Source: Candidatus Aenigmatarchaeota archaeon
GTDB lineage: Archaea; Aenigmatarchaeota; Aenigmatarchaeia; QMZP01
Direction of reading: 5' to 3'
Length of the DNA stretch: 63,492 nt
NCBI GenBank assembly: GCA_043824495.1
Contig: JBDRSV010000001.1
Span: 1 to 63,492 of the forward strand
The position numbers and the translations under genes are program-made. Under the pieces are notes generated by a model that had not been told where the DNA came from, did no database searches, and was given only the letters and a program-made list of their open reading frames with translations. The first letter of the stretch is position 1. Every line of letters begins with the position of its first letter. This document shows positions 19,359 to 20,634 of the stretch, in pieces.

Positions 19359-20279
19359 ATGGAACTTAAGCTTCCTTTACAGGAAGATCCTTATGTAATA
19401 AACGTACCTATAAAAAGAAACAAGTCTTCTATAGTCATTGATCTTAAAAATCGTCATCTAGGAGCTTTCTTGGGAGCATTTAACAGTGAAGGAAATCTTA
19501 CCGGAAAATCTACGCTAAAAATATCATGTAAAGATATCAATTACCTTAATTCTGTGACAAGCCATATAAAAGAAGTTATGGGAGAATATGGAGCAACAGA
19601 AAAACCACCCACAAAAGAAGATAAAAAAGGAGAGAAAGGGTTCCATAAGTACTATTCCAGTACTGTTTCTAGAACACTAATCAATGGTTATCAAGTGAGA
19701 CCAGGGAAAAAGATTTTGATAAACAATAGGTTGCCAAAAATTATAATAAACACTAGTCTGAATTCTCCCTGGTTAAAAGAATGGCTAAAATTCTATCTAC
19801 AAATGAGATTATCTGGAGACGGTCATGTAAGAAACAGTAAAAATGTTAAGAATGGCAAAAAGTGTTTAACCCGACGGGTAGTTCTTAGTCGAAATATGGC
19901 ACTTGTCAACATTGATGAAAAGTTATTATTAGATATAATGAAAAACTATTCAAATAAGAAAAGCGTGAAAAATTATCCTCAAAGAGTAACCGATGAAATA
20001 GGAATAAGGATGAGAGGGAAAATAAACTACCCCAAAGAGTTCTTTGACTTACAGTATTTTTTGGAAAAACTTTTTGATATAAACAGTCTGATCTATACTG
20101 CTGGTTTGAGATCTATATATTATGACAAAAAGAGAAAGAAATATATAATATCATGTAAATACAGACTGATTATATCGAGAAAAGAAGATATTATAAAATT
20201 CCATGACAAAATAAATTTTGCTTTTTGTGATAAAACTAATAGAAAAAAGCTTATAAAGCTAATTAAGACGTATAAATAA
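19359..20279 (+). CDS. Free-standing two-motif LAGLIDADG-type homing endonuclease-like protein
   Basis: Motif 1 'FLGAFNSEGN', motif 2 'YLQMRLSGDGHV', both with the acidic catalytic position; very Lys/Arg-rich; TTTATAT at 19332-19338 upstream. Confidence 0.7.
   Translation: MELKLPLQEDPYVINVPIKRNKSSIVIDLKNRHLGAFLGAFNSEGNLTGKSTLKISCKDINYLNSVTSHIKEVMGEYGATEKPPTKEDKKGEKGFHKYYSSTVSRTLINGYQVRPGKKILINNRLPKIIINTSLNSPWLKEWLKFYLQMRLSGDGHVRNSKNVKNGKKCLTRRVVLSRNMALVNIDEKLLLDIMKNYSNKKSVKNYPQRVTDEIGIRMRGKINYPKEFFDLQYFLEKLFDINSLIYTAGLRSIYYDKKRKKYIISCKYRLIISRKEDIIKFHDKINFAFCDKTNRKKLIKLIKTYK
20271..20278 (+). promoter_or_regulatory. Candidate TATA box of the tRNA-iMet gene, overlapping the last codons of the LAGLIDADG gene
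   Basis: TATAAATA ends 25 nt upstream of tRNA position 1 (20304). Confidence 0.55.
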
Positions 20280-20310
20280 TAATACAATGCATCTAAGCTG
20301 TTCAGCGGGG

Positions 20311-20343
20311 ACTGTTGATTATTGAGGTAATCATCGGCCGTAA
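20311..20343 (+). other. tRNA intron 1 (33 nt) at position 7/8
   Basis: Central helix GCGG 20305-20308/CCGT 20338-20341; bulges GG^A and AA^T; long intron hairpin CTGTTGATTAT/GTAATCATCGG. Confidence 0.88.
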
Positions 20344-20367
20344 TGGAGCAGCCTGGAGTGCTCGTTG

Positions 20368-20384
20368 AGGCGTATGCCGCGAAA
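20368..20384 (+). other. tRNA intron 2 (17 nt) at position 29/30
   Basis: Central helix TCGT 20362-20365/GCGA 20379-20382; bulges TG^A and AA^G; intron helix GGC/GCC. Confidence 0.9.
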
Positions 20385-20392
20385 GGCTCATA

Positions 20393-20406
20393 GCTTGCTC
20401 TGGGAC
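20393..20406 (+). other. tRNA intron 3 (14 nt) at canonical position 37/38
   Basis: Central helix CTCA 20387-20390/TGGG 20401-20404; bulge TA^G opens into an unpaired loop (relaxed BHB); 3' bulge AC^A. Confidence 0.9.
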
Positions 20407-20413
20407 ACCCAAA

Positions 20414-20432
20414 AGGATAGAAATCCTGGGAG
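20414..20432 (+). other. tRNA intron 4 (19 nt) at position 44/45
   Basis: Central helix CCCA 20408-20411/TGGG 20427-20430; bulges AA^A and AG^G; intron helix GGAT/ATCC; removal restores variable region AGGTC. Confidence 0.88.
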
Positions 20433-20634
20433 GGTCAGTGGTTCAAATCCACTCCCCGCTATCCCCCTCCACCCACCGTTCAGATTTGCTGAATTTCGAT
20501 AACTTATAAATAAATCCTTAATAAAGACGTTTTTGATAGTTCCTATAAATAATTCCATAAAAGTCTTTTTTATTGTTTCTGAATTTTGTGACATGTAACT
20601 TAAATTATTTTTTATGAATAATTAACTGGGCTCA

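What the first reader, a model, noticed from the sequence alone, without database searches (positions are those of the whole stretch)
20304..20461. Initiator tRNA-Met gene split by four BHB micro-introns
Seen in sequence: five exons (7, 24, 8, 7 and 29 nt) separated by introns of 33, 17, 14 and 19 nt. Each intron has its own 4-bp central helix and 3-nt bulges, and cutting after the second bulge nucleotide gives exactly a canonical archaeal tRNA-iMet (A1-U72, GGG/CCC anticodon stem, CAU, AGGUC variable loop). Established: archaeal splicing endonucleases cut BHB motifs this way, and to my knowledge the maximum described in archaeal tRNAs is three introns (Thermoproteales). Inference: a four-intron essential tRNA that standard annotation would miss or call a pseudogene.
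Basis: partly seen in the sequence, partly recalled or inferred. Interest (0 to 1): 0.95.

Follow-up and report, generated by a model that had tools for sequence, protein, structure and literature searches.

The report
Four-intron initiator tRNA gene, DPANN archaeon

Summary
Observation confirmed exactly. Joining 20304-20310, 20344-20367, 20385-20392, 20407-20413 and 20433-20461 gives a 75-nt cloverleaf. ARAGORN calls it tRNA-Met(CAU). It has A1:U72 and GGG/CCC in the anticodon stem. ARAGORN and Rfam both miss the unspliced gene.

All four inserts (positions 7/8, 29/30, 37/38, 44/45) sit at canonical bulge-helix-bulge motifs. Shifted boundaries gave 0 of 480 canonical motifs, and shuffled introns never gave all four.

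The spliced product is 75/75 identical to the spliced iMet of another genus, whose introns lie elsewhere. Orthologues in 25 relatives carry 0-3 introns. No second iMet exists in the 80%-complete assembly.

RtcB ligase is present. The splicing endonuclease gene is not assembled here, but 29 of 31 genomes searched (this one among the two without) have it, including an ARMAN-2-like epsilon-type enzyme.

The novelty claim fails. A 2024 Asgard paper lists four-intron tRNAs in its supplement, and a 2026 preprint reports up to five. I found a five-intron orthologue (L202) and a second iMet gene with four inserts (L119). This scan had already noted 3- to 5-intron iMet genes in other Aenigmatarchaeota.

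No RNA evidence was available. A LAGLIDADG endonuclease gene directly upstream recurs beside intron-bearing iMet genes.

The parts
20304..20310 (+). Exon 1: tRNA positions 1-7 (5' acceptor strand)
   Evidence: Positions 2-5 also form the central helix of the first BHB with the 3' part of intron 1.
20311..20343 (+). Intron 1, 33 nt, at position 7/8 (HBh' type)
   Evidence: H 4/4, h' 3 bp plus an extended hairpin. An intron at the same site occurs in G001, G003, G010, G018, L066, L200 and L202. In all of them the four H-forming nucleotides and the AA of the 3' bulge are kept while the rest varies.
20344..20367 (+). Exon 2: positions 8-29 (D arm and 5' anticodon stem)
   Evidence: 20345-20364 is a 20-mer identical in iMet genes across DPANN.
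20368..20384 (+). Intron 2, 17 nt, at position 29/30 (hBHBh' type)
   Evidence: H 4/4, h 2 bp, h' 3 bp. The local minimum-free-energy fold shows the bulge-helix-bulge. This site is occupied in many relatives of three families.
20385..20392 (+). Exon 3: positions 30-37, includes anticodon CAT
20393..20406 (+). Intron 3, 14 nt, at the canonical position 37/38 (hBH type with a 7-nt loop)
   Evidence: H 4/4 (one G-U), h 2 bp, no h'. It is the weakest of the four in local folding. The site is shared with G003, G010, G011, G014, G023 and G029.
20407..20413 (+). Exon 4: positions 38-44 (7-nt micro-exon)
20414..20432 (+). Intron 4, 19 nt, at position 44/45 (HBh' type)
   Evidence: H 4/4, h' 4 bp with a 4-nt loop. 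Only 0.03% of shuffled introns reach this. It was seen at this exact site only in this genome. G021 has an intron one position away, at 43/44.
20433..20461 (+). Exon 5: positions 45-73 (variable loop, T arm, 3' acceptor strand, discriminator A). No CCA is encoded.
20249..20279 (+). Two TATA-like boxes upstream (about 20249-20259 and 20271-20278); likely archaeal promoter. Read by eye.
   Evidence: Sequence. The same two boxes and spacing appear upstream of the orthologue in G010. Not tested further.
19359..20279 (+). Neighbouring gene: free-standing double-motif LAGLIDADG homing-endonuclease-like protein (306 aa), ending 24 nt before the tRNA
   Evidence: Model pLDDT 80.8, pTM 0.84. The listed PDB fold matches are LAGLIDADG homing endonucleases or closely related LAGLIDADG proteins; the best is I-Tsp061I at E 3e-6. 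Four of seven homologues carry PF14528. All five members whose surroundings could be read lie directly upstream of an intron-bearing iMet gene.

Best explanation
The locus is the functional, single assembled initiator tRNA-Met gene of an Aenigmatarchaeota (DPANN) archaeon from groundwater. It is transcribed as a precursor of at least 158 nt from a TATA-like promoter. Four protein-spliced introns at positions 7/8, 29/30, 37/38 and 44/45 each present a bulge-helix-bulge motif. In that motif, four exon nucleotides pair with four intron nucleotides between two 3-nt bulges. The archaeal splicing endonuclease EndA cuts both bulges, and RtcB joins the five exons into a 75-nt initiator tRNA. In this family the endonuclease is an epsilon-type enzyme like that of ARMAN-2, plus an alpha-type paralogue. 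Neighbouring motifs share nucleotides. C32 serves both helix h of motif 2 and helix H of motif 3. C39 and C40 serve both h of motif 3 and H of motif 4. G2-G5 serve either H of motif 1 or the acceptor stem. The precursor therefore has to refold between cuts, or is cut in relaxed forms. Shown here: the anatomy, the motifs, conservation of the spliced product, intron presence and absence among orthologues, and RtcB in the genome. Inferred: transcription, actual cleavage and ligation, stepwise order, and which enzyme acts.
For: The spliced product is a perfect cloverleaf that ARAGORN calls tRNA-Met. A cloverleaf-plus-BHB solver ranks the four-intron solution first, with the same score as intron-less tRNAs of this genome. 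All four boundaries are canonical BHB motifs and the nulls are near zero. The product is 75/75 identical to the spliced iMet of G016, whose introns are at 29/30 and 59/60. It differs by 2-6 nt from several other orthologues, including the intron-less gene of G004. Twenty distinct mature iMet sequences keep every stem pair, with compensatory changes, and GGG/CCC is invariant. Orthologues in 25 relatives carry 0-3 introns at shared and different sites. There is synteny with RNase HII and a conserved promoter region. No other CAT-anticodon tRNA or iMet-like locus is in the assembly. RtcB is present. EndA is present in 29 of the 31 genomes searched. The roughly 395-aa form matches ARMAN-2 epsilon-2 EndA (4FZ2) at E 1e-103 over its full length. 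That enzyme cuts strict and relaxed BHB motifs at non-canonical positions (PMC3239211, PMC3488258). The locus sits on a 61.7-kb contig at about 40x depth in a separately built (Logan) assembly of the probable source run.
Against: There is no RNA evidence: no RNA run holds the locus. No EndA gene was found in this 80%-complete assembly by Pfam or tblastn. Intron 3 has no h' helix and its BHB is not the local minimum-free-energy fold. Adjacent motifs overlap, so all four complete motifs cannot coexist. tRNAscan-SE could not be run.
Confidence: 0.9

Rival explanations
1. Only three of the inserts are introns. The 19-nt insert at 44/45 is retained and forms a long variable arm, as in class II tRNAs.
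For: The insert lies in the variable region and contains its own 4-bp hairpin. The solver also finds three-intron solutions with long variable arms.
Against: Those solutions score lower and weaken the anticodon stem. The insert has a perfect BHB, reached by only 0.03% of shuffles. All 26 solved orthologues have a 5-nt variable loop, and removing the insert gives a product identical to G016's. From my own knowledge, no initiator tRNA with a long variable arm is known.
Confidence: 0.04
2. A decaying pseudogene: a former iMet gene riddled with insertions and no longer used, with the working copy lying in the unassembled part of the genome.
For: The assembly is only 80% complete. No expression data exist.
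Against: The exons carry no change relative to a working orthologue (75/75). All four inserts keep exact splice motifs. Promoter boxes are conserved. Orthologues in more complete genomes (G003 92%, G014 91%) are also multi-intron and gave one match per genome in the pattern searches.
Confidence: 0.04
3. An assembly or binning artefact: a chimeric contig or mis-joined reads create the inserts.
For: The genome is a metagenome-assembled genome.
Against: An identical 61.7-kb contig at even depth of about 40x exists in a separately built assembly of the probable source run. That run is not an independent sample. Introns at the same sites occur in many unrelated samples.
Confidence: 0.01

Closest known systems
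Multi-intron tRNA genes of Thermoproteales (e.g. Pyrobaculum calidifontis), as summarised in PMC8450103
   Same: Several short BHB introns per tRNA gene at canonical and non-canonical positions. They are removed by EndA, and close neighbours need stepwise removal.
   Different: Those are described with at most three introns per gene, and the enzyme is an (alpha-beta)2 EndA. Here there are four introns, in a DPANN lineage whose relatives carry an epsilon-type EndA.
[quoted passage not shown]
   Same: Four introns per tRNA gene are listed there: Freyarchaeia Arg-TCT and Ile2-CAT, and Atabeyarchaeia-2 Trp and Lys. Up to five are reported in the preprint. Standard callers miss many of them.
   Different: A different superphylum. 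The Atabeyarchaeia-2 iMet listed there has three introns. The Asgard cases sit in 2-5 Mb genomes, whereas this genome is about 1.2 Mb.
Disrupted tRNA genes and epsilon-2 EndA of ARMAN-2 (Micrarchaeota), PMC3239211 and PMC3488258, PDB 4FZ2
   Same: A DPANN lineage. The roughly 395-aa EndA of this family matches 4FZ2 at E 1e-103. The relatives' iMet genes carry introns at 53/54 and 59/60, the sites described for ARMAN-2 pre-tRNA-Pro.
   Different: ARMAN-2 genes were described with up to two introns. Here there are four, and the relatives also keep a separate alpha-type EndA.
Orthologous iMet genes of other Aenigmatarchaeota and DPANN found here
   Same: The same gene and the same exon sequences. 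Intron sites 7/8, 29/30 and 37/38 are shared. L202 has five introns and L119 has four inserts.
   Different: The intron at exactly 44/45 was seen only here. The combination 7/8 + 29/30 + 37/38 + 44/45 is unique in the sample.

Membership tests
Archaeal protein-spliced (BHB) tRNA intron | Intervening sequence absent from the mature tRNA and from intron-less orthologues | tested here: met
   Spliced alignment to the intron-less gene of G004 gives four inserts after positions 7, 29, 37 and 44. The product is identical to G016's.
Archaeal protein-spliced (BHB) tRNA intron | 4-bp central helix between two 3-nt bulges that hold the cut sites | tested here: met
   4/4 pairs and 3-nt bulges at all four introns.
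Archaeal protein-spliced (BHB) tRNA intron | At least one flanking helix (h or h') of 2 bp or more | tested here: met
   h/h' = 0/3, 2/3, 2/0 and 0/4.
Archaeal protein-spliced (BHB) tRNA intron | Splicing endonuclease EndA encoded by the organism | tested here: inconclusive
   Not found in this 80%-complete assembly. Present in 29 of the 31 genomes searched, including the same genus.
Archaeal protein-spliced (BHB) tRNA intron | RNA ligase RtcB encoded by the organism | tested here: met
   G000:C2:319-3141, 477 bits.
Archaeal protein-spliced (BHB) tRNA intron | Spliced RNA or excised intron observed | not testable with these tools
   No RNA run holds the locus.
Archaeal initiator tRNA-Met | Anticodon CAU in a 7-nt loop with U33 | tested here: met
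Archaeal initiator tRNA-Met | A1:U72 pair at the end of the acceptor stem | tested here: met
   Kept in 19 of 20 distinct orthologues.
Archaeal initiator tRNA-Met | Three consecutive G:C pairs (29-31:39-41) in the anticodon stem | tested here: met
   Invariant in 20 of 20 orthologues.
LAGLIDADG homing endonuclease (the neighbouring ORF) | Two LAGLIDADG helices with acidic residues in an alpha-beta-beta-alpha-beta-beta-alpha double-domain fold | tested here: met
   The motif residues E44-G45 and G153-D154 are invariant. All fold matches with E <= 0.001 (top seven) are LAGLIDADG homing endonucleases; below that the list also holds one LAGLIDADG maturase. Pfam on this member alone is weak (E 0.3). 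Nuclease activity and target are untested.

The most novel reading that the evidence does not exclude
The iMet gene and the LAGLIDADG endonuclease gene directly upstream form one selfish unit. The endonuclease would cut intron-less or differently interrupted iMet alleles. Repair from the linked allele would then spread both the endonuclease gene and its introns. That would explain why this one essential gene carries 0 to 5 introns among close relatives, and it would give archaeal BHB introns a DNA-level route of spread, which is still unknown.
Probability: 0.15. Interest if true: 0.75.

Novelty: new member of a known kind. Interest (0 to 1): 0.35.

Why it matters
The gene shows that heavy tRNA-gene fragmentation also affects the single essential initiator tRNA of Aenigmatarchaeota. 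Until now it was documented mainly for Thermoproteales and, recently, Asgard archaea.

Common finders miss such genes. ARAGORN and Rfam found only 25 tRNAs in this genome and none with a CAU anticodon. tRNA complements of DPANN genomes are therefore under-counted.

One orthologous gene carries 0-5 introns at about ten different sites among related genomes. It is a convenient natural series for asking how BHB introns are gained and lost. The recurring endonuclease neighbour offers a testable lead. The intron count itself is not a record.

Tried and rejected
RNA evidence: one search listed no RNA holder. Two metatranscriptomes of the same study laid no contig on the locus. This is not evidence either way.

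EndA in the own genome: Pfam PF01974 and tblastn with six relatives' proteins found nothing. I read this as a gap in the assembly, not as absence.

A genome-contig scan with the downstream 449-aa protein found no relatives.

Genome-wide census of hidden multi-intron tRNAs with my own BHB-plus-cloverleaf solver: allowing long introns and up to five of them gave many false solutions in AT-rich DNA. After filtering for G+C only known tRNAs and this gene remained. So I cannot say how many other tRNA genes here have three or more introns. Two long tRNA-like loci (C24:102126-102291 and C8:7344-7524) stayed unresolved.

Spliced alignment guided by a reference mis-set some boundaries in relatives, for example G021 at 43/44. 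I corrected these with the structure-aware solver. Many relatives with relaxed motifs or C33 got no strict solution, so intron counts for those rest on the motif-free alignment alone.

No paralogue of any of the four introns exists elsewhere in the genome, so there is no sign of intron transposition.

An EF-2 tree put G000 and G001 together (100/100) but left the backbone unresolved. Gains and losses could therefore not be ordered beyond the terminal 44/45 intron.

Full report
WHAT IS THERE

The exons are 7, 24, 8, 7 and 29 nt, and the inserts are 33, 17, 14 and 19 nt. The joined exons are 75 nt. ARAGORN calls them tRNA-Met(CAT) over the full length. The product has a 7-bp acceptor stem starting A1-U72, a 4-bp D stem and a 5-bp anticodon stem containing G29-G31/C39-C41. 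It also has a 5-nt variable loop and a normal T arm.

On the unspliced DNA, both ARAGORN and the Rfam tRNA model find nothing here. This holds even at E up to 10 in the whole-genome search. The locus is a G+C peak (53%) in an intergenic gap of 25-35% G+C. The gap lies between a 306-aa ORF and a 449-aa ORF.

ARE THE INSERTS INTRONS?

[quoted passage not shown] Four exon nucleotides just upstream of a 3-nt bulge pair with the four intron nucleotides just upstream of the second 3-nt bulge. Each bulge is cut after its second nucleotide.

- All four inserts meet this with 4 of 4 pairs.
- All four have a flanking helix of at least 2 bp.
- The types are HBh' at 7/8, hBHBh' at 29/30, hBH at 37/38 and HBh' at 44/45.

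The boundaries were obtained without the motif, by spliced alignment to the intron-less orthologue of another genus (G004).

Nulls:
- The same lengths placed elsewhere in the gene gave 4 canonical motifs in 513 placements.
- Boundaries shifted by up to 5 nt gave 0 in 480.
- Shuffled introns gave 0.5%, 5.7%, 1.4% and 0.03%, and never all four in 20,000 trials.

A solver that combines BHB candidates with cloverleaf rules ranks the four-intron solution first. Its score of 25 equals that of the intron-less tRNAs of this genome. The three-intron alternatives have long variable arms and weaker anticodon stems. Local folding shows the motif at or near the minimum free energy for introns 1, 2 and 4. 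Intron 3 is weaker.

COMPARATIVE EVIDENCE

Pattern searches in 30 relatives, all with genomes of 0.8-1.5 Mb, found the orthologous gene in 25 of them.

By eye and by solver these genes carry 0 to 3 introns. Sites seen were 7/8, about 10/11, the D stem, 29/30, 32/33, 37/38, 43/44, 53/54 and 59/60.

The spliced product of the window gene is 75/75 identical to the spliced product of G016, whose two introns are at 29/30 and 59/60. It differs by only 2-6 nt from several other orthologues, among them the intron-less gene of G004.

Across 20 distinct mature sequences every stem position stays paired. There are compensatory changes in the acceptor, anticodon and T stems. The GGG/CCC stack is invariant.

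Where introns share a site, the four H-forming nucleotides and the bulges are kept while the rest of the intron differs. For the 7/8 intron, the only variation in the intron strand of helix H is T or C opposite G2, and both pair. This is the pattern expected of introns under selection to be spliced. It is not the pattern of a decaying gene.

The locus is syntenic with RNase HII, and the upstream TATA-like boxes are conserved with G010.

IS IT THE ONLY COPY?

ARAGORN finds 25 tRNAs in the 1.01-Mb, 80%-complete assembly, and none has a CAT anticodon. A short-word BLAST of the spliced product against the genome hits only exons 2 and 5 of this locus above noise.

MACHINERY

RtcB is present. EndA was not found in this assembly by Pfam or tblastn. 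It is present in 29 of the 31 genomes searched; the two without are this assembly and one 70%-complete relative.

The relatives have two forms:
- A protein of about 180 aa of alpha type, closest to the M. kandleri and M. jannaschii enzymes.
- A protein of about 395 aa that matches the ARMAN-2 epsilon-2 enzyme (PDB 4FZ2) at E 1e-103 over its whole length.

The ARMAN-2 enzyme cuts strict and relaxed motifs at non-canonical positions (PMC3239211, PMC3488258). I therefore infer that the missing 20% of the genome holds the enzyme.

HOW IT PROBABLY WORKS

Every central helix lies within its own upstream exon. All four can therefore form on the primary transcript. Neighbouring motifs, however, share nucleotides:
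- C32 is used by helix h of motif 2 and by helix H of motif 3.
- C39 and C40 are used by h of motif 3 and by H of motif 4.
- G2-G5 form either H of motif 1 or the acceptor stem.

All four complete motifs cannot coexist. The precursor must refold between cuts, or some cuts use relaxed forms. This is an inference from the sequence. Stepwise removal is documented for other multi-intron tRNAs (PMC8450103, PMC3728597).

ORGANISM

Contigs of two same-family genomes are identical in length and in gene region to GenBank records titled Candidatus Aenigmatarchaeota (G008:C3 = JAFCEK010000013.1; G013:C10 = JAPLVB010000041.1). The only DNA run holding the locus is a groundwater metagenome. There it lies on a 61.7-kb contig at about 40x depth.

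NOVELTY

'Up to three introns' is the statement in PMC8450103 and PMC3239211, but it is outdated.

- Supplementary Data 4 of PMC11291895 lists four-intron tRNA genes in Freyarchaeia (Arg-TCT, Ile2-CAT, Leu-GAG) and Atabeyarchaeia-2 (Trp, Lys).
- A 2026 preprint reports up to five intervening sequences per gene.
- L119 (an uncultured DPANN archaeon) has four inserts in its iMet gene. Two have canonical motifs, one needs prior removal of its neighbour, and one is not canonical.
- L202 has five introns, at 7/8, 29/30, 37/38, 53/54 and 59/60. Four have full central helices and one has 3 of 4 pairs.
- Earlier notes of this scan record 3-, 4- and 5-intron iMet genes in other Aenigmatarchaeota, and one of them states that relatives carry up to six.

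So this is a well-supported new member of a known kind. Only the intron at exactly 44/45 and the particular combination of sites are new. On an EF-2 tree the same-genus genome G001 is the sister (100/100). It has only the 7/8 intron, so turnover is fast. The backbone of the tree is unresolved.

NEIGHBOUR

The 306-aa ORF ending 24 nt upstream is a double-motif LAGLIDADG protein.
- Pfam on this member alone gives E 0.3, but four of seven homologues carry PF14528.
- The motif residues are invariant in the alignment.
- The model has pLDDT 80.8.
- Every match with E <= 0.001 is a homing endonuclease, with I-Tsp061I best at E 3e-6; further down the list is one LAGLIDADG maturase (bI3).

All five family members whose surroundings could be read lie directly upstream of an iMet gene with two to five introns; these are this window, G010, L200, L201 and L202. 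The family was not found beside the other 82 iMet loci sampled. These genomes are related, so this is a lead and not a statistical result.

Noticed in passing
window 19359-20279 (+): A free-standing LAGLIDADG homing-endonuclease-like gene ends 24 nt before the tRNA, and its stop codon lies in the proximal TATA-like box. Homologues (45-53% identity) sit directly upstream of intron-bearing iMet genes in all five contexts that could be read.
   Followed up: partly
L202:2074-2261 (Logan contig SRR22388272_2950): An orthologous iMet gene with five introns (7/8, 29/30, 37/38, 53/54, 59/60; 22, 22, 15, 31 and 23 nt). It lies right after a homologue of the LAGLIDADG gene and before RNase HII.
   Followed up: partly
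L119 (CAYUSU010000002.1), 199-nt gene: An iMet gene with four inserts, a 5-nt exon and C33 in place of U33. One insert near 43/44 has no canonical BHB. C33 also occurs in the iMet of G019, G027 and L066.
   Followed up: partly
G000:C2:319-3141 (L167): The RtcB ligase reading frame is 1002 aa. The Pfam match is split by about 1.5 kb of extra in-frame sequence, which looks like an intein.
   Followed up: no
G000:C5:52150-52203 (+) and G000:C14:8943-8990 (-): GC-rich pieces that look like tRNA 3' halves (T arm plus 3' acceptor strand) with no 5' half nearby. The first resembles the 3' part of tRNA-Ser(GGA). They could be split-tRNA halves, attachment-site remnants or very fragmented genes.
   Followed up: no
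G000:C24:102126-102291 (+) and G000:C8:7344-7524 (+): Long tRNA-like genes (about 166 and 181 nt) with intact acceptor and T arms and several intervening sequences. My strict solver could not resolve them. ARAGORN's calls for them (His, Ser with one long intron) look wrong or incomplete.
   Followed up: partly
relatives G001-G030 (e.g. L168:211-1398, L015:1474-2004): Most genomes of this order encode both an ARMAN-2-like epsilon-type EndA (about 395-420 aa) and a separate alpha-type EndA (about 180 aa). PMC5829648 (2018) described the epsilon type only from Micrarchaeota.
   Followed up: partly
whole genome G000: Only 25 tRNA genes are found by ARAGORN or Rfam in an 80%-complete genome. None has a CAT anticodon, so the elongator Met tRNA is missing, as are tRNAs for several amino acids (for example Asp, Glu, Lys, Trp). 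Many more disrupted tRNA genes are likely.
   Followed up: partly
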